IMG/VR virus record: IMGVR_UViG_3300020331_000002
Reading direction: 5' to 3' (one strand)
DNA: 64,000 nt
Source: a virus
Lineage: Duplodnaviria; Caudoviricetes
A program made the position numbers and the translations under genes. Each line of letters opens with the position of its first letter. Position 1 is the stretch's first letter. Positions 38,941 through 63,311 of the stretch are shown here, piece after piece. Below the pieces are notes generated by a model that saw nothing but the letters and a program-made list of their open reading frames with translations, ran no database searches and was not told the origin of the DNA.

Positions 38941-39063
38941 GGTGGAGAGCAAGGAATTGAACCTCATCTTCCGGCTTGGGCTGAATGAAAACATGCTGTT
39001 AGAATACTAATACAGTATTCGTTATTTTCGTGGCCGGCGTGCAACCGTTACACTTTCTCTCCA
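38941..39063 (-). ncRNA. tRNA-like RNA with anticodon loop replaced by ~57-nt insert
   Basis: TGGAGAG/CTCTCCA acceptor, D arm GTGT/GCAC, CCGGC/GCCGG stem, T arm TGAGG-TTCAATT-CCTTG. Confidence 0.7.
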
Positions 39064-39082
39064 TATTCGCTATTATACATTT

Positions 39083-41032
39083 TTACTTGTCGGCGTCAAG
39101 TAGTTTTAGCAAATTTTTAAAAAGTTCTGGGTCTAGTCGTGGGGTTGGTGCAGTGGTTGGTGCTGGCGCGACGCGCACAAACTCGGCTTCTTTATCTCGT
39201 TTGCATGTCATGACACATCCGCATGTCATATCAAAAGCAGACTCGCCGAAGCCGTGACTCACTAAGTCTTCTATTTCGGTGACGCAGTTGCAATTGGTGC
39301 ATATTATCAGTTTATCAGACATTATAGTTGCTCATATAACAGACAGGCTAAAGGTATCGCGGATAGCAGGGCTAAAGGTACTCTATGTCTATTACCTTAG
39401 CACTAGGCACGGTGAACTCGGTCTCGCGATCAGTTATATTACCGAAAATGATATCGTTTGGGTTGAACTCAAACGTTACCAAAATTTCTTCTTCTGCTAG
39501 GCCGCTGTAATAGTCAAGCACATAATCACGGTCAAGTGACATATAAATGCCATTACCGGGCATTCGCATTGTGTCGCCTTTCTTTATATCAAGTACGATA
39601 CGATTGTTAGCGCCTGCGACTACCTTACCGTTTTCTATGGCCATAACTTTATAGCCGGTCATTGTTTGTTCTCCAGCAATGTTTTCGGCCATGCTGCGCA
39701 GTGCAGCTGACAGATCATCCTGAAAAAGTTCATCTAAAATCATACAAGTCCCCGTTAGTTGTTACACTATTTATATGATTTTAGTTGAACGCTTTCAATC
39801 CTGTGCGGGAAAGCGAACAGCTACCTGGTTACCGTTTGTGTCAATGCCATTGGCAGTCCAGGTCTTGTTAATATGATTTTGACGCACCATAGCAGTCAAT
39901 GTCACAGATTCACCGGTAGTGAACTCTACGAACATCTTACACATATGGGTGTCAACGAATTGCAGATCATCAAAGTCCACAGATGCGACAACGCGGGTGT
40001 CATACCCGCGATATCGTTTACTAAACCATTTGAGTGTTATTACTTCCATCAACCTCTCGCTTGTTTCATTGCTTCAATATCATCTTCATCGTACAAATAC
40101 GCATCACCAACAGCGTCGTGAGCTGGGCTACCGTAACGCGGCGCCACACTGTACCATAAATCTGAACGATGTAATTTAGGATAGCGACCTTCAGAAATTT
40201 TATGGCGCATAATTTCTAAGCGCTCACGTTGCAAGTCTAAATCTTCACTTGCCGCTACGTGACGATAACGCTTACCGTTGAATAGTTCAACTTGAAAATA
40301 ATAAACATCAACAATGACGTTGTCACCGTCTTCAGTGTAATGACCGGCTTTGTATTGCTGATCAGAAACAATCTCAAGCGAATGTATTTGAACGCCTTCT
40401 AGGGCCTTAGTGTACTGGTCTGTCATATCGTTTTACCTTGTTTGTTAGCTTACAATAGATATGATAGCGCCTTGAGCGTCAATGTCAAGGCCTTTTTGAA
40501 GAAAAATTAAAAATTATTTCGGTAAACGGTCGAGCACTTCTTTTGCTGCTTCGTCCATCCTCGCATCTAGCAGGTTTGAGATTTCGTTCATGTAACCCAA
40601 GCGCAGATTAACGTCGTGGCCGTCGCAGTCGTTTTCAATGTAACGAAAGCGTTCTTCGTGTAGTTGCTCAGTTGTCATTGTTTGTAACTTTTCTAGTGCT
40701 TTGTTTTTCATGATATTACCTCATTAATTGGGAGGAAGGAAGGGTTGTCAAAACAACCCTTAGCGCAAGTAAGTTTGCTTCAAACTGTCAATCCAGTTTG
40801 TCATGCTTACTAGTTGCTTCTGAGTCATGCGCTCAGTGCCTGCCAATTCAAGCACCTCGTCTAACATGTAACCAATTTGGTCACTGTTAGCGTAGTAAGG
40901 GTTATTTTTGCTCAACACATAGCCAGTGTTGCGAGTACGGCGTTTAACAAAAGCTTTTAGGTCAGCCACAGTGTGCTTCGGCTTTTCAATCAACGCTAAA
41001 TGTTCTTTTTTAATGCTGCTCAAAGTGTTCAT
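39083..41032 (-). other. six small hypothetical CDSs (39083-39322, 39372-39743 late, 39795-40052, 40049-40426, 40514-40711, 40760-41032)
   Basis: ORF track; TATAAATA at 39768-39775; sigma70-type promoters near 40460 and 41075. Confidence 0.6.
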
Positions 41033-41136
41033 AGTGTCTTACCTTTGTTTGTTAAATGTCGTCTTCAGTATCTATATTACTACCTTGACGACCAAAGTCA
41101 ACACCTGTTTGAAAAAATTTCAATTATTTTTCGACA

Positions 41137-41580
41137 CTACTTTAGAAAGCTTTTTGCCATTAAGCTACCAGCAGGAATAATAATATAGTACACCGCGTTG
41201 TCACCGTGTCCCATTTCATTCCAGAAAAACAGCACGTAATCACCTGAGTTTACTTCCTGGATTACTAACGACTCACCGTGCATGTCATTAATGCTGAACG
41301 GATCCGTAGCGGAGTCGTATTGCACGGGCGATGATATAAATTCAAGGCCCTCTCGCTCTACGCCAATTAAATCAGCTATCACTGACTCGTCAGAGTCAAC
41401 AATATAAAGGTAGAAGCTTTCTACGCCGGGATCAAGGTTTATGATACCGTTACATAGCACGTTCGACACCATACCGGGCGGGATAGGGGTATGTAAAACA
41501 GAGCCGGGGCGTATAAAAGAAAGTGACGAAAGTCCTGATCTAACAATGCCATCAACGGTGTTTGCGATTAACTGTGTCAT
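41137..41580 (-). CDS. hypothetical protein
   Basis: ORF track. Confidence 0.6.
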   Translation of the reverse strand: MTQLIANTVDGIVRSGLSSLSFIRPGSVLHTPIPPGMVSNVLCNGIINLDPGVESFYLYIVDSDESVIADLIGVEREGLEFISSPVQYDSATDPFSINDMHGESLVIQEVNSGDYVLFFWNEMGHGDNAVYYIIIPAGSLMAKSFLK

Positions 41581-41640
41581 AATATTACCCTTGTTATAAA
41601 AAAGTTCAAAGATAATATTACATATATGAGGTTTGAACGC

Positions 41641-41803
41641 AAGACTATTCGCGAGTTGCCTTGCCGGTCATTTCTTTCTACCTTCTAGTTGCCATTTAGT
41701 AAGGCTGACCCCGGACCTTCCCCTAACTAAGTTAGGCTAGCTGGTTAAGTAGCTGGCTAGGCTCCACAGCACATACGGCCCCAGTTTGTCGCGATCCGGT
41801 CTT
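41641..41803 (-). ncRNA. candidate ~165-nt structured RNA
   Basis: Ends pair (AAGAC…TCGCGA / TCGCGA…GTCTT); internal CCTAACT/AGTTAGG and CTAGC hairpins; purine-rich GGGGAAGGTCCGGGG. Confidence 0.45.
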
Positions 41804-41809
41804 TTTCGT

Positions 41810-42569
41810 TTAATCTTTGGTTGTCTTTTCAACATCCTCGATGTTCTGCATTACATCTTGCCTAAATGCTTTATACGCGCTCGCTAGCACATCAGGCCGC
41901 GTTAACCCGATCCACCACGACATGATGTTATTGATTCTATTCGAATCGTCAGAGGGAGCCTGCGGCGTTTTAAACCAATGGAATACAGTTAGCATACCCA
42001 ACAGTGTGAAGAATATACCACTAACCGAGAGTAAAAACAAAAATAGTGACAGAATCATAGAACCTCCTTTTCTTTTATTTACTGTCACCAAGCGCGGAGT
42101 TTATCAGTTCTGCCTCGCCGCTTAAAACGATGTCAAATTCAGCTTGCGCTTTCTTGAAAGCTCGCTTCTTTTTCTCTTTGAGCGCGGATATTTCGTCAGC
42201 ATAGACATTGATAAAGTGTGCTTTGCCTTCCGTGTTCAAGAAGTTCCATAAGTAGAAGACTGACACAAAATCATTATACGGGTTGTCAAGCTTTGCGCGT
42301 ATTACCTGTACTGTATTAAAGTACTCAACACCGCCGAGATCGTATACGCGAGCTCCGGTGATTTCGATATTATAATCTTTATTTTCGTGACGAGTCCAGC
42401 CATTACTTTTGCCAAGAAAATCACCCTCGACTTCAGTAAACTCGATATCAAAATATGACATGAATGTTTTCATTTCAATACGAGTCGGCTTCTTGAAATT
42501 GATTGTATTCCTATCAACAGCACCGGCGATAGTCTCAATACCAGGCGATAGGCTAAAAGCTTCTTTCAT
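41810..42569 (-). other. small membrane protein (41810-42058) and hypothetical protein (42075-42569)
   Basis: ORF track; GGAGG RBS before 42058. Confidence 0.6.
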
Positions 42570-42587
42570 TACTTACTCAATAAAGGC

Positions 42588-42663
42588 TGGAGCACACTGC
42601 GGGATTCGAACCCGCGTATCTGGATTTGCAATCCAGTGCCTATATCCTCTCGGCCAAGCGTGC
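42588..42663 (-). tRNA. trnC: tRNA-Cys(GCA)
   Basis: Full cloverleaf, CTGGA-TTGCAAA-TCCAG, CCA. Confidence 0.92.
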
Positions 42664-42670
42664 TCTATGA

Positions 42671-43731
42671 TTAAGAACTAGCAGATGCAACAAGCGCAAC
42701 GGCGTCAACTAGTGCAAGGATTTCATTTTCAGTTTTGTTTTCCAAATTTTCAAAACATAGATCCATTGACACACAATCTACGAACTGAAGCTCAAATGAG
42801 TCAGTCATTGTCGGAATTACACCGACGTGAAACATGATCGGTGCCTTACCGCGAATATGTTTAGTCAATTCGTTAAAGAATTCTTTCGAAATAATCTTCT
42901 TGTTTGGCATCTTTTTTCCTAGTATGTACTTACGTCTTGAGCGAACTCGTCGCCAAACCCAACCAATAACTCAGTCATGTTTTGGCAATCAAGATAGTTG
43001 GCAGCGTGCACGTCTGCAAATATAGCAACGTCGCCGCGCTCACGGGGCTCTAACATTTCTGTCGACTTAACTAAAGTTTCGACGTCCATTTCATAGTGTG
43101 CTTTAATATACGCGCCGTTTACAATGCTTCCTAAGCGCTGGCCATCGGCGTTGCCGCCATATAACATGAATTCTTCAGCGACGTAGTTACCTACGGGCAT
43201 CGAGAAAGACTCACTATCGATTACTGCAATACGGTATTCGCCGATTTCGCATACTAGCAGACCGTTCAAGCCGTTCAGGCCTTCGTGCTTTGCTAGATCA
43301 GCCGGGTCGAGCATAGATATAACTTCGTCTATGTGTTCTTGGCTTTCGCATAGTGCAAGGCTTGTGCCGTCAGCGCCGCTGATGTCGAGTGTAAAGCTAG
43401 TAGGCGGCTTTACGTTAGGTTGACAGTAATACGTGCCTTTGAGGTCAAGCTTACTGCCTGGATAGTGGATTTCTACCTTGTGTGGTACGAGTTTCATGAT
43501 CGTTCTCCGTTACGTAAAGCCTAATTACTTTACTATGCACAGTGTAGCACCGGATCCAAATCAGTCAACTGTTTTGTGAAAAATAAATTATTTCTTTTTC
43601 TTCTTTTCTTTTTTGGCTGGCGCTACTTTTTCTTCAACTTTTATTTTAGGTGCGCTAACTGCTTGAGGTTCAATGTTATTTGCAAACACCGATTCTATTA
43701 GTTCAACAAACCATATTCCGTTTTTTCCCAT
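42671..43731 (-). other. hypothetical CDSs 42671-42910, 42919-43497 and a 47-aa Lys-tailed ORF 43588-43731
   Basis: ORF track and manual reading. Confidence 0.55.
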
Positions 43732-43870
43732 ATATCCTCCGTTATTATGATGATGGTGACCCTAGTGAAATTTAAACAAGCTTGATAGGCAATGTTCGAT
43801 TCAGAAGGAGACGGTCTTATAAGTATATACTAGAAAATTTCATTAATTACCGGCATGTGGTGTAAAGAAG

Positions 43871-43991
43871 TGGTAGGGAGTGCAGGACTCGAACCTGCGA
43901 CCCACGGCTTACAAGGCAATAAGGATATGCTGTTAGAATACTAAAACAGTATTCATGTTTACGTTGCTCTACCCAACTGAGCTAACTCCCT
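43871..43991 (-). tRNA. tRNA-Thr(UGU) interrupted by a 44-nt insert in the anticodon stem
   Basis: Removing 43918-43961 yields a canonical 77-nt cloverleaf with ACGGC-CTTGTAA-GCCGT. Confidence 0.8.
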
Positions 43992-44848
43992 AGAAGTTTC
44001 TGATGAACTGTCTTAAGTCTTTGACACCTCCACATCCGAGTATTATTAATCCGCCTAGCGGCACTGCGCTAAAAATACCCACAAGCACGTTAAACGCGAA
44101 ACAGTATATTATAGCCATTGCCAAACCCACATTAAGGGTCAATATGCCTGCCATCAAAAGCATTGCACAAAAACGGATTAATGTTTTAAATGTATTTTCC
44201 ATTTTCTTAGTATGAACCCAAGCTTACTTTTTGTCAAGGAATTTTTTAAAATCACTGTAAATTTCTATGCCAGCTTCTTCAACTTCCGCCTGTGTCAAAA
44301 ACGCAGAGTCTGAGTACAAGGTACCGTCGCGTTTAATGAAGTAAAACCGATCATCGACTTTGCCCAAAACAGCACCCCGGCCCAAAAGTCCGGGCACCAT
44401 ATCAATCAACGAGGCTGCGCCAAACACGGTTGCCTTAAACAGTTCAGCATCAGGCACGATACCGATTAAAATGTCAGTGACGTCATTTATAGTAGCCATG
44501 ATAACCTCACTTAAACTTAACCGGTAGTGTTATATAATTGTTTGTATCGAATTCTACGATGCGCATGAGAGCCCAGCGTTCAGCGATAATATTGCGCTTT
44601 TTCCCTTTGACAGAAAGTTGGCAACGGAAGCGACCGTCCCAGAAGCTGCGCTTGAGCTTCTTTAGCTGGCCGGATTTAATCGAGAACACTTCTTCGCGCT
44701 CAATAGAAACGTAGTATCCGGGCGCATTTGAAATTGGATGTAAGAGATTCGAGTCGTTTAGATCAACGATATCACAGGGCGGGGATAGGTGTTGTTCATT
44801 AAAGCGGTCTAGCGCCGCTAGCACAGCTTCTTTAATTCTTTTAATCAT
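43990..44848 (-). other. three small CDSs (43990-44202 membrane, 44224-44499, 44507-44848)
   Basis: ORF track. Confidence 0.55.
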
Positions 44849-44864
44849 AGTAACCTCGAGTTAA

Positions 44865-44970
44865 GGTTGCCGGGCCAAGGAATCGAACCTCGTTCGGGTG
44901 CATACTTGCGAAGTTTGCTGCGACAAATCTAAACAGACTTAATGGAGTCCCTCAGAATCATTCACCCGGC
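44865..44970 (-). ncRNA. tRNA-like RNA with hairpin-CAGCAA insert
   Basis: GCCGGGT/GCCCGGC acceptor, CGAGG-TTCGATT-CCTTG T arm, no normal anticodon arm. Confidence 0.65.
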
Positions 44971-54811: not shown

Positions 54812-54963
54812 TGGGCGAGCCGCCGGGATTCGAACCCGGGAATACAGAATACTTCCGCTATTTGCATTTCACTTGGCATTGTCCGTACCTTTAAACCCCT
54901 CATACCAATACTTGGCTTAAAGAACCGATGCACCGATTCTTAAAGTTGCAAGGAGTCAGCCCG
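54812..54963 (-). ncRNA. 152-nt tRNA/tmRNA-like RNA with G3:U70 acceptor stem
   Basis: CGGGCTG/CGGCTCG + C + CCA; T arm CCGGG-TTCGAAT-CCCGG; no D or anticodon arm. Confidence 0.7.
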
Positions 54964-54973
54964 ATTGTTAAAA

Positions 54974-55053
54974 TGGCGCAGGTGTAGGGAGTCGAACCCT
55001 CAAGTCTCTCGACACGGTTTTGGAGACCGCTTTGCTCGCCAATGCGCACCTAC
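54974..55053 (-). tRNA. trnW: tRNA-Trp(CCA), atypical (V-arm hairpin, weak D arm)
   Basis: GCGGT-CTCCAAA-ACCGT; GTC-GAGA-GAC variable stem. Confidence 0.75.
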
Positions 55054-58891: not shown

Positions 58892-58988
58892 TAGTACCAG
58901 GTACGGGATTCGAACCCGCAGGGTCATTATTGCAGACCGCGACAAGCACTTCCGTGATGCCGCGCCTTCCCATTCGGCGCAACCTAGT
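58892..58988 (-). tRNA. atypical tRNA, CGG (Pro) at anticodon position; A33, 25-nt V region, CTA end
   Basis: ACTAGGT/ACCTGGT, D and T arms intact; loop CACGGAA. Confidence 0.55.
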
Positions 58989-59866: not shown

Positions 59867-59945
59867 TGGTTGCAAGGGCGGGATTTGAACCCGCGTCCGC
59901 TAGGGTTATGAGCCCTGCCATCTGCCAGACTGATTGTACCTTGCT
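59867..59945 (-). tRNA. trnfM: initiator tRNA-fMet(CAU) copy 2
   Basis: 1:72 mismatch, GGG/CCC anticodon stem, CCA. Confidence 0.85.
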
Positions 59946-59951
59946 ATTGTT

Positions 59952-60031
59952 TGGCGCGGCAGGTAGGAGTCGAACCCACATGTTTCCAATTACTCTTTCG
60001 ACTGGTTCGTAGCCAGAGGAGATACAACCGC
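59952..60031 (-). tRNA. arm-rearranged tRNA-Arg(ACG)-like RNA
   Basis: Acceptor, 8-nt linker, CTGG-CTACGAA-CCAG, then GAG-TAATTGG, T arm, CCA; no 5' D arm. Confidence 0.7.
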
Positions 60032-60041
60032 ATTAAACTTT

Positions 60042-63126: not shown

Positions 63127-63227
63127 AATTTGCTACCTTGTGTTTGTTTAATCAACCTACACAGACATAATAGCAAAATGACATTCAAGTACAAGACTTG
63201 TTTGAAAATAATTTAAAATATATTTTG

Positions 63228-63311
63228 CACAGCGGACGGGTCTCGAACCCGCAATGCGATATTCGCGCTGCCTTGAAAGGGCAGTGACTTTACCAGTTTG
63301 TCCACCGCTGT
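63228..63311 (-). tRNA. trnE: tRNA-Glu(UUC) with long variable arm, CCA not encoded
   Basis: CTGCC-CTTTCAA-GGCAG; GCG-AATAT-CGC V stem. Confidence 0.85.

What the first reader, a model, noticed from the sequence alone, without database searches (positions are those of the whole stretch)
38941..44970. Family of tRNAs carrying a shared hairpin-CAGCA module inserted in the anticodon arm
Seen: three tRNA scaffolds have extra sequence in the anticodon arm. At 43871-43991, a 44-nt insert whose exact removal restores a canonical tRNA-Thr(UGU). At 38941-39063, a ~57-nt insert replacing the loop. At 44865-44970, a hairpin followed by GCAGCAAA. The first two inserts share GAATACTGT(A/T)TTAGTATTCTAACAGCAT at 27/28 nt (38993-39020 vs 43927-43954), although their host tRNA bodies differ. 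The module is a 6-bp hairpin whose loop (CTGT) could pair with the downstream ACAG as a pseudoknot. It is too short for a group I intron and is not a bulge-helix-bulge. Inference: a new small tRNA intron or mobile module, or tRNA chimeras presenting a protein-binding aptamer, such as decoys for host anticodon nucleases. This is the best candidate here for an undescribed RNA system.
Basis: partly seen in the sequence, partly recalled or inferred. Interest (0 to 1): 0.85.

Follow-up and report, generated by a model that had tools for sequence, protein, structure and literature searches.

The report
Phage tRNAs carrying a Y-RNA handle
Three tRNA-shaped genes of a 311-kb marine phage carry, inside the anticodon arm, the same small stem-plus-ACAGCA "handle" that marks the partner RNAs of a Ro60-like ring protein in hundreds of phages, so they are most likely tRNA-shaped Y RNAs, not tRNAs with a new kind of intron.

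Summary
c1 (43871-43992, minus strand) is a complete tRNA with 44 nt inserted exactly between nucleotides 29 and 30. c2 carries the same 28-nt core in place of its anticodon loop. c3 carries a diverged copy (GCAGCAA).

The insert belongs to a wider RNA family: helix, 1-3 nt, ACAGCAA (range NCNGCAA), helix.
- Four free-standing copies lie just outside the window.
- Arrays of copies flank genes for a DUF2828/DUF7788 protein in phages of Enterococcus, Listeria, Staphylococcus, Bacillus, Campylobacter, Mycobacterium and E. coli, and in metagenomic phages.

This phage encodes that protein. Its model matches Ro60/TROVE structures over its full length.

Some family members are circularly permuted tRNA mimics that score as Rfam YrlA, below threshold. 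A Synechococcus phage has c1-type and c2-type chimeras directly beside its gene, with compensatory changes in the hairpin.

Metatranscriptome contigs hold c1 with the insert. No spliced form was seen.

Best reading: Y-RNA-like partner RNAs built on tRNA scaffolds, in a permuted topology. Splicing is not excluded. The proposed pseudoknot is not supported.

This scan already found the DUF2828/ACAGCAA pairing on more than 100 other genomes. I found no published description.

The parts
43962..43992 (-). c1 5' part: acceptor strand, D arm, nt 26-29 of the anticodon stem (ends ACG)
   Evidence: Almost identical to the 5' part of the Synechococcus phage BUCT-ZZ01 chimera.
43918..43961 (-). c1 44-nt insert (the handle). 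Hairpin GAATACT/AGTATTC at 43954-43948 and 43942-43936, spacer TA, motif ACAGCAT at 43933-43927, flanked by A-rich and U-rich strands.
   Evidence: Kept in metatranscriptome contigs.
43871..43917 (-). c1 3' part: GC, anticodon loop CTTGTAA, GCCGT, variable loop, T arm, acceptor strand, ACCA
   Evidence: The anticodon is GAT in the 90%-identical relative and GTT in BUCT-ZZ01.
38941..39064 (-). c2: tRNA-like body (acceptor, D arm GTGT/GCAC, stem CCGGC/GCCGG, T arm 38966-38950). It encloses the handle: hairpin 39020-39014 and 39008-39002, motif ACAGCAT 38999-38993.
   Evidence: The same D-arm type with a handle occurs in BUCT-ZZ01 and in metagenome locus L011.
39072..39099 (-). sigma-70-type promoter match TTGACG-16-TATAAT placed to start transcription at the 5' end of c2
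   Evidence: An RNA-library contig ends at 39064.
44865..44970 (-). c3: acceptor-like stem GCCGGGT/GCCCGGC, T arm 44892-44876, diverged handle (hairpin AAGTCT/AGATTT at 44940-44935 and 44930-44925, spacer GTC, motif GCAGCAA at 44921-44915)
   Evidence: The motif lies within the NCNGCAA range seen in homologues.

Best explanation
c1, c2 and probably c3 are stable non-coding RNAs of the Y-RNA kind, built on tRNA scaffolds.

The inserted module is a helix-bulge-helix 'handle': helix Pb, then 1-3 nt plus ACAGCA(A/U) left unpaired on one strand, then an A/U-rich helix Pa. It is the shared mark of RNAs that accompany a phage Ro60-like ring protein (DUF2828 + DUF7788/vWA). This phage encodes that protein at about 159.8-161.2 kb of its genome.

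Inferred mechanism:
- The ring protein binds the handle.
- The rest of the RNA is displayed as the working part. That part can be an anticodon stem-loop look-alike, a whole tRNA-like body, or here a complete tRNA with a CCA end.
- The displayed part engages enzymes that recognise tRNA, such as tRNA-cutting defence nucleases, repair and end-healing enzymes, or exonucleases such as PNPase.

In ordinary family members the handle is closed by the RNA's two ends. In c1-c3 it is closed by a loop and opens into the tRNA's anticodon stem. This is a circular permutation of the YrlA plan.

Shown here: the handle, its family, its genomic link to the protein gene, the protein's Ro60-like fold, and the presence of unspliced c1 in RNA libraries.

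Inferred: binding, the absence of splicing, and the cellular target.
For: Anatomy
-.
- Four free-standing copies (7-bp stem, UAACAGCAA, helix, hairpin) lie at genome 20086-20740, each behind a promoter-like site.

Link to YrlA
- Enterococcus phage UTI-EfS3 has three tandem units with the same motif.
- Two of them are circularly permuted tRNA mimics, broken at or near the same 29/30 site.
- They score as Rfam YrlA at 45.9 and 34.3 bits, below the gathering score of 69.
- The next gene on the strand is DUF2828 + DUF7788/vWA.

The protein
- G000 encodes a 478-aa homologue.
- Its AlphaFold model has pLDDT 90.9.
- The model's 13 best PDB matches are all Ro60/TROVE proteins over about 500 columns, with E from 7e-10 to 5e-5.

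Genomic association
- Within 1.5 kb of 14 DUF2828 genes, on the gene strand, there are 36 ACAGCAA heptamers where about 2.6 are expected. Of these, 31 are closed by a 6-bp helix of differing sequence.
- In the rest of the same loci there are 24 heptamers, 7 of them closed.

Homologous chimeras beside the gene
- Synechococcus phage BUCT-ZZ01 has a c1-type chimera with the same ACG|insert|GC site, plus a c2-type chimera.
- Aeromonas phage Ah1 and metagenome locus L011 have chimeras too.
- Their hairpins differ by paired changes: GAATACT/AGTATTC, CATTCT/AGAATG, GAATCT/AGATTC, TACTCT/GGAGTA.

Conservation and expression
- In the 90%-identical relative the module is invariant while the c2 body drifts.
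- Four RNA-library runs hold contigs with c1 plus its insert and show no joint. In X20 the c1 contig has depth 136, against 3-7 for its neighbours.

Precedent
- Thermus phage Ro60 binds two upstream stem-bulge-stem RNAs and host PNPase (PMC12135203).
- YrlA RNAs mimic tRNA (PMC4201824).
Against: - No binding data exist for any DUF2828 protein or any ACAGCAA RNA.
- In this genome the protein gene lies about 113 kb from c1 and c2, so the local link rests on other phages.
- The canonical Ro60 motif (GNCGAA / CGAA) is absent, and Pfam TROVE does not match the protein.
- c1-type chimeras in three phages restore a flawless anticodon arm when the insert is removed. A Y-RNA role does not obviously require that, but a spliced tRNA would.
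- Logan contigs cannot show that a minor spliced form is absent, and DNA carry-over in the RNA libraries is not excluded.
- c3's motif differs at its first base, and its hairpin has two G-U pairs.
Confidence: 0.66

Rival explanations
1. The insert is a small intron. c1-type genes are real tRNA genes (Thr here, Ile in the relative, Asn in the cyanophage). A protein that recognises the handle cuts the insert out and the ends are ligated. The Ro-like protein could be that recognition factor or a chaperone for it.
For: Exact removal restores a canonical 5-bp stem and a 7-nt loop with U33 and A37 in three phages. The CCA end is encoded. A 689-aa protein with a weak RNA-ligase domain (PF09414, 25.4 bits, below the cut-off) lies 6 kb from the Ro-like gene. 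Metallophosphoesterase and HD genes flank the Ro-like gene. The Listeria phage has RtcB and RNA ligase genes near its DUF2828 gene.
Against: No spliced contig or joint appears in four RNA runs, while the unspliced form is abundant. c2, c3, the Ah1 element and all E-type units yield no tRNA when the handle is removed. The phage already has a tRNA-Thr(UGU) and a tRNA-Ile(GAU). No RtcB, Rnl1 or EndA-type endonuclease was found. There is no bulge-helix-bulge, and 44 nt is far too short for a group I or group II intron.
Confidence: 0.17
2. The module is a selfish or decaying insertion. It copied itself between tRNA genes and inactivated them, so c1-c3 are pseudogenes without function.
For: The c1 and c2 cores are 27/28 identical although the bodies differ. 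The c2 body accumulates changes in the relative that weaken its T stem. c3 is degenerate.
Against: c1-type and c2-type chimeras are conserved as a pair in a distant cyanophage, directly beside the DUF2828 gene, with compensatory hairpin changes. The module is invariant between relatives. c2 has its own strong promoter match, and an RNA contig ends at its 5' end. c1 is the deepest contig of its neighbourhood in an RNA library.
Confidence: 0.07
3. The RNAs act without the Ro-like protein, for example as free decoys or sponges for host anticodon nucleases or tRNA-modifying enzymes. ACAGCA would then be recognised by a host factor.
For: 7 of 31 payloads fold into anticodon-like 7-nt loops, against 0.19 in shuffles. 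Most such loops end in U36-A37 (Lys UUU, Arg UCU, Ser GCU, Thr UGU, Ile GAU, Asn GUU). The anticodon changes between close relatives while the body stays the same.
Against: The motif clusters tightly around DUF2828 genes across unrelated phage families and hosts. This points to the phage protein, not to a factor of one host. Many payloads are not anticodon-like.
Confidence: 0.1

Closest known systems
Bacterial and mycobacteriophage YrlA Y RNAs with Ro60/Rsr (Rfam RF02553; Chen et al. 2014, PMC4201824)
   Same: Small RNAs encoded beside a Ro60-type ring protein gene on the same strand. They have a protein-binding stem with an unpaired conserved motif plus a tRNA-like domain (T arm, D arm, acceptor-like stem). 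The permuted members of the present family hit the YrlA model.
   Different: The motif is ACAGCAA (NCNGCAA), not GNCGAAN0-1G. The protein is DUF2828/DUF7788, not Pfam TROVE. All hits are below Rfam's gathering score, and c1 and c2 give no hit at all. In c1-c3 the topology is inverted: the tRNA ends are free, with CCA, and the handle is loop-closed inside the anticodon stem. c1 keeps a full anticodon stem-loop.
Thermus phage phiLo Ro60 with Yrl1/Yrl2 (PMC12135203; PDB 9KOP, 9L5Y)
   Same: A phage-encoded Ro60 ring with vWA domain, and stem-bulge-stem RNAs encoded next to the gene. It is the best structural match of the G000 protein model.
   Different: The motif there is CGAA. No tRNA scaffold is reported. 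Only about 15% sequence identity. Binding and PNPase recruitment were shown there and are only inferred here.
Class I RNAs of dictyostelid social amoebae (Kjellin et al. 2021, PMC7919456)
   Same: RNAs of 42-65 nt with a short stem joining the 5' and 3' ends, an unpaired conserved 11-nt motif next to the 5' stem strand, and a variable remainder. The paper's invariant positions (T3, C6, C9, A10, A11) fit xxUxACAGCAA and the NCNGCAA range found here. The full motif CCUUACAGCAA is from my memory and is not in the text I read.
   Different: Eukaryotic nuclear genes, reported as unique to Dictyostelia and bound by an RRM protein. No tRNA scaffold. A link to DUF2828 proteins was not tested here.
tRNA introns and permuted tRNA genes (archaeal/eukaryal bulge-helix-bulge introns; group I introns in bacterial tRNAs; permuted tRNA genes of Cyanidioschyzon merolae)
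   Same: Extra sequence in the anticodon arm whose removal restores a tRNA. The Enterococcus phage units are permuted tRNA-like genes, broken at the same 29/30 site.
   Different: There is no bulge-helix-bulge, no group I core and no splicing endonuclease gene. No spliced product was seen. Most family members have no exons to join.

Membership tests
Y RNA (partner RNA of a Ro60-type protein) | Encoded close to, and on the same strand as, a Ro60-type gene | tested here: inconclusive
   Met for the family: 31 closed ACAGCAA units lie within 1.5 kb of 14 DUF2828 genes, and c1/c2-type chimeras lie directly after the BUCT-ZZ01 gene. Not met for c1-c3 themselves, which lie about 113 kb from the G000 gene.
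Y RNA (partner RNA of a Ro60-type protein) | Stem - unpaired conserved motif - stem architecture | tested here: met
   Pb helix, 1-3 nt plus ACAGCA(A/U), Pa helix. Pb differs in sequence in nearly every copy but always pairs.
Y RNA (partner RNA of a Ro60-type protein) | Physical binding to the Ro60-type protein | not testable with these tools
   Needs EMSA, RIP or cryo-EM.
YrlA (Rfam RF02553) | Score at or above the Rfam gathering threshold (69 bits); GNCGAAN0-1G motif | tested here: not met
   No YrlA hit on c1-c3 at E<=1. Related permuted units score 27.7-45.9 bits. The motif is ACAGCAA instead.
YrlA (Rfam RF02553) | tRNA-like domain with T arm, D arm and acceptor-like stem | tested here: met
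   c1 has a complete cloverleaf. c2 has acceptor, D and T arms. c3 has acceptor and T arms only.
Ro60/TROVE protein (for the partner protein P0001) | HEAT-repeat ring plus vWA domain fold | tested here: met
   The top 13 Foldseek PDB hits are all Ro60/TROVE, full length, TM 0.33-0.58. VWA_2 and DUF7788 match.
Ro60/TROVE protein (for the partner protein P0001) | Match to Pfam TROVE (PF05731) or sequence similarity to solved Ro60 | tested here: not met
   No PF05731 match in G000 or in P0001 at E<=1. No Ro60 hit by sequence or by profile against the PDB.
Canonical tRNA (RF00005) | Contiguous cloverleaf with a 7-nt anticodon loop | tested here: not met
   ARAGORN default and Rfam tRNA at E<=1 miss c1-c3. 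c1 qualifies only after the 44 nt are removed.
tRNA intron (bulge-helix-bulge or group I) | BHB motif at the splice sites, or a group I catalytic core; a spliced product | tested here: not met
   No BHB is seen by inspection. There is no intron family hit in Rfam, no EndA and no joint in the RNA contigs. The last point cannot prove absence.

The most novel reading that the evidence does not exclude
c1-type RNAs are working, chargeable tRNAs that permanently carry a Ro-handle, or are spliced by a handle-guided, protein-dependent pathway unknown in bacteria and phages. The phage Ro-like ring would then escort, gate, repair or mature a chosen set of tRNAs, mostly those reading ANN codons. The anticodon would be swapped between relatives (Thr, Ile, Asn) to follow host defences. 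The same handle would tie phage RNAs to the unexplained Class I RNAs of social amoebae.
Probability: 0.15. Interest if true: 0.9.

Novelty: new variant of a known kind. Interest (0 to 1): 0.68.

Why it matters
Ro60 and its Y RNAs are conserved from bacteria to humans, yet what the tRNA-like part of bacterial Y RNAs does is still unknown.

- **Scale.** This is a second, much larger phage branch of the system. About 700 phage records and more than 6,700 metagenomic proteins carry the DUF2828 protein. The branch has its own RNA handle, which is absent from Rfam.
- **Variety of cargo.** The cargo runs from bare anticodon-loop mimics to whole tRNAs. The chimeras in this window show that the handle can be grafted into a real tRNA frame at a fixed site.
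- **Evidence of selection.** The frame is conserved between a marine jumbo phage and a freshwater cyanophage, while the anticodon changes.
- **Testable hypothesis.** The ring protein presents tRNA parts to tRNA-directed enzymes during the phage-host conflict.
- **Ready models.** Cultured phages are available for testing: Felix O1-type, Listeria P100-type, Enterococcus Schiekvirus and Synechococcus BUCT-ZZ01.
- **Annotation.** Unannotated gaps and spurious small ORFs in many phage tRNA regions are explained.

Tried and rejected
- **Pseudoknot CUGU:ACAG.** Lost without compensation in BUCT-ZZ01 (motif TCTGCAA) and Ah1 (ACCGCAA). It is impossible in the open units, which have no loop.
- **Known ribozymes, riboswitches or other Rfam families.** Nothing hits c1-c3, E1-E4 or the units of other phages, apart from sub-threshold YrlA on the permuted ones.
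- **Group I intron or BHB intron.** Size and structure do not fit.
- **tracrRNA or CRISPR-repeat mimic.** AACAGCAUA recalled the SpCas9 anti-repeat, but only from memory. No further similarity was seen, so the idea was dropped.
- **Hfq (ARN)3 site.** Unlikely to explain a motif shared with Enterococcus phages.
Not kept in the relative.
- **Extra ACAGCAA sites at genome 127510 and 162442.** Both lie inside coding regions and are false positives.
- **Single-sequence AlphaFold model.** Useless, with pLDDT 41.
- **Sequence or profile search of the PDB.** No Ro60 hit.
- **Close relatives.** Only one exists in IMG/VR. Its E1-E4 region is 98% identical, so it carries no information.
- **Ten neighbouring proteins in the window.** No Pfam hit for any.
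- **Literature on 'permuted tRNA' in phages and on DUF2828.** Nothing relevant was found.

Full report
**Setting.** The window is the minus strand of a complete 310,672-bp IMG/VR phage record with terminal repeats, 43.6% G+C, from marine metagenomes. It covers most of a tRNA region with 23 standard tRNA genes, all on one strand, interspersed with small genes that have no Pfam match.

**Check of the observation.**
- c1 (43871-43992, minus strand) reads AGGGAGT TA GCTC..GAGC A ACG | 44 nt | GC CTTGTAA GCCGT GGGTC GCAGG TTCGAGT CCTGC ACTCCCT ACCA. ARAGORN finds it only when introns are allowed. It places the break in the loop, but the break between nt 29 and 30 is the only one that gives a perfect 5-bp stem.
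- c2 (38941-39064) has acceptor, D and T arms. Its stem CCGGC/GCCGG encloses 57 nt, from which no canonical loop can be recovered.
- The 28-nt core occurs exactly twice in the window, and none is expected by chance.
- c3 (44865-44970) has an acceptor-like stem and a T arm, and a 6-bp hairpin, a 3-nt spacer and GCAGCAA. That is the same geometry as c1 and c2.

**The module is a family.** Just beyond the window's end (genome 20086-20740, tRNA strand) lie four small units. An earlier first-reader note pointed to them, and I read and folded them. Each has a 7-bp stem of different sequence, then (U/G)AACAGCAA unpaired, a second helix and a terminal hairpin. Each sits behind a promoter-like TTGACA/TATAAT pair. 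Three terminal loops look like anticodon loops: CUUCUAA, CUUUUAA and CUCAUCC.

These units and the inserts are the same object in two topologies. One strand runs Pb-bulge-Pa and the other runs Pa-Pb without a bulge. In the free units the Pb end is open and the Pa end carries the cargo. In c1-c3 Pb is closed by a loop and Pa opens into the tRNA.

**Bridge to a known kind.** A megablast hit of c1's 3' part in Enterococcus Schiekvirus phages led to three tandem unannotated units there. Each has AAGAAnnn, ACAGCAA, a cargo, and nnnTTCTT closing the stem, with covariation CGC/GCG, TCT/AGA and CC/GG.

Two cargos are circularly permuted tRNA-like domains: anticodon stem-loop, T arm, acceptor hairpin, D arm. 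In one, the break falls at the same ACG|GC site as in c1. Rfam's YrlA model hits them at 45.9 and 34.3 bits, below its threshold of 69. YrlA RNAs are the tRNA-mimicking Y RNAs bound by bacterial Ro60, with the motif GNCGAAN0-1G (PMC4201824). That motif is absent here.

**The protein.** The gene directly after the Enterococcus array encodes a 510-aa DUF2828 + DUF7788/vWA protein. The marine phage has no Pfam TROVE, RtcB, Rnl1 or EndA gene. It does encode a 478-aa DUF2828/DUF7788 protein.
- With an alignment of 64 homologues, AlphaFold gives pLDDT 90.9.
- Foldseek's best 13 PDB matches are all Ro60/TROVE structures aligned over about 500 columns. They include Thermus phage phiLo, Xenopus, human and Deinococcus. 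Isolated vWA domains follow.
- Sequence and profile searches do not see the relationship.
- The gene is flanked by metallophosphoesterase and HD-domain genes. Metallophosphatase or phosphohydrolase genes lie close to it in the Bacillus, Mycobacterium and Listeria phages too, and in Listeria also RtcB and RNA ligase genes.

**Association test.** The protein occurs in about 700 phage records, where it is often annotated 'Ro-like RNA binding protein', and in more than 6,700 metagenomic proteins. I fetched 14 loci.
- The set comprised three metagenomic phages and phages of Enterococcus, E. coli, Vibrio, Aeromonas, Synechococcus, Bacillus, Campylobacter, Mycobacterium, Staphylococcus, Listeria and Erwinia.
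- On the gene strand, within 1.5 kb of the gene, there are 36 ACAGCAA heptamers where about 2.6 are expected. Of these, 31 are closed by a 6-bp helix whose sequence differs from copy to copy.
- The rest of the loci hold 24 heptamers, 7 of them closed (the units are listed).
- Rfam has nothing for them except sub-threshold YrlA on the tRNA-like ones.
- Seven of 31 cargos fold into anticodon-like loops, against 0.19 in shuffles.

**Homologues of the chimeras.** Running ARAGORN with introns on these loci found more handle-bearing tRNA frames beside the gene.
- Synechococcus phage BUCT-ZZ01 has two directly after its DUF2828 gene. One has c2's D-arm type.
- The other is almost base-for-base c1: the same 5' part, the same ACG|insert|GC site, and the stem ACGGC/GCCGT. 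It differs in its anticodon (GTT), in a T stem changed by paired substitutions, in the hairpin CATTCT/AGAATG and in the motif TCTGCAA.
- Aeromonas phage Ah1 (GAATCT/AGATTC, ACCGCAA) and metagenome locus L011 (TACTCT/GGAGTA, ACAGCAC) add two more.
- The motif range is therefore NCNGCAA, which admits c3.
- Within a genome the two modules are nearly identical. Between genomes they differ by compensatory changes.
- In the 90%-identical relative of this phage, c1's anticodon is GAT instead of TGT while the rest is almost unchanged. c2's body drifts while its module is invariant.
- c1 without its insert is not a copy of the phage's own tRNA-Thr (50 of 83 aligned columns identical).

**Expression.** Four marine metatranscriptome runs hold contigs covering c1 with the insert and no differences. 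No joint is reported.
- In run X20 the 605-nt contig over c1 has depth 136, while its neighbours have depths of 3-7.
- A contig ends at 39064, the 5' end of c2, 7 nt after a TTGACG-16-TATAAT match.
- Contigs cannot exclude a minor spliced form, and DNA carry-over is possible.
- The loose ends at 43882/43917 belong to uninterrupted tRNAs of other organisms with nearly the same anticodon arm.

**Reading.** The handle is best explained as the binding site of the phage's Ro60-like protein. c1-c3 are then Y-RNA-like partners in a tRNA frame. The Thermus phage Ro60 binds stem-bulge-stem RNAs encoded beside its gene and recruits host PNPase (PMC12135203). A comparative survey of jumbo phages lists ROT/TROVE proteins with a tRNA-like partner among RNA-repair systems (PMC7824862).

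What the displayed tRNA part engages is unknown. The excess of anticodon-like loops ending in U36-A37 and the switching anticodon suggest tRNA-directed nucleases or repair and modification enzymes. That step is inference.

The main rival, splicing to a working tRNA, keeps about one chance in six, because removing the insert gives a flawless anticodon arm.

**Prior notes.** After reaching this reading I queried the scan's notes. The DUF2828/ACAGCAA pairing had been reported on more than 100 other genomes, with the same conclusion and no publication found. One note led me to Dictyostelium Class I RNAs. Their published description (a stem joining the ends, an unpaired 11-nt motif with invariant T3, C6, C9, A10 and A11, and a variable rest) fits this handle. 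I did not test a protein link.

Noticed in passing
genome G000:C1:20086-20740 (tRNA strand; about 1.9-2.6 kb beyond the window's end; locus L025 287-941): Four free-standing handle RNAs (E1-E4). Each has a 7-bp stem, UAACAGCAA, a helix and a hairpin, behind promoter-like sites. Three loops mimic anticodon loops (UCU, UUU, CAU). No Rfam hit.
   Followed up: yes
window 54978-55053 (-): tRNA-like gene with anticodon loop CTCCAAA (Trp CCA) and an extra arm. ARAGORN misses it. Weak Rfam tRNA-Sec hit (32 bits).
   Followed up: partly
window 54815-54963 (-): RNA-like element of about 150 nt with a 7-bp acceptor-type stem (CGGGCTG/CGGCTCG), a T arm and CCCA, enclosing about 110 nt that include the hairpin AAGAATCG/CGGTTCTT. 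No ACAGCAA.
   Followed up: no
window 59867-60035 (-): Two more T-arm-bearing tRNA-like elements missed by ARAGORN. One has a CAT anticodon loop and the other a possible ACG loop without a D arm. Weak tmRNA hit (24.9 bits).
   Followed up: no
window 58894-58988, 63227-63311; genome 21617-21708, 21874-21958: Several standard tRNAs are unusually long for their type (Pro 95 nt, Glu 85, Asn 92, Lys 85), which implies extra arms.
   Followed up: no
L015 3930-3969 (Vibrio phage KVP40): A handle-like unit (GACATT tt ACAGCAA ... AATGTC) spans the ribosome-binding site and start codon of KVP40's own DUF2828 gene. This could allow the protein to repress its own translation.
   Followed up: no
L023 3427-3978 (Listeria phage LMTA-148): ROOL RNA match (90 bits, just under the 99.1 cut-off) among tRNAs upstream of the handle array and the DUF2828 gene. 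RtcB and RNA ligase genes lie 1-4 kb downstream.
   Followed up: no
L028 (G000:C1:150001-166000): The Ro-like gene is flanked by a calcineurin-type metallophosphoesterase and an HD-domain protein. A 689-aa protein with a weak RNA-ligase domain (PF09414, 25.4 bits) lies 6 kb away.
   Followed up: partly
L019 2726-2841, 3116-3250, 4005-4090 (Bacillus phage vB_BanS-Thrax1): Handle variants ACAGCTA, ACAGCAA and ACAGCGA followed by T arms, inside the annotated tRNA cluster. One scores as YrlA (37.5 bits). These are unannotated tRNA-mimic Y-like RNAs.
   Followed up: partly
window 43882-43917, loose ends: Metatranscriptome contigs from other organisms carry uninterrupted tRNAs whose anticodon arm and T arm match c1's 3' part (2 differences in 36 nt). 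They run straight into ...GAGCAACG, so c1's split stem copies a natural tRNA of the community.
   Followed up: no
L017 7488-7606 (Aeromonas phage Ah1): tRNA-like element with two T-arm-like hairpins, next to the handle-bearing chimera.
   Followed up: no
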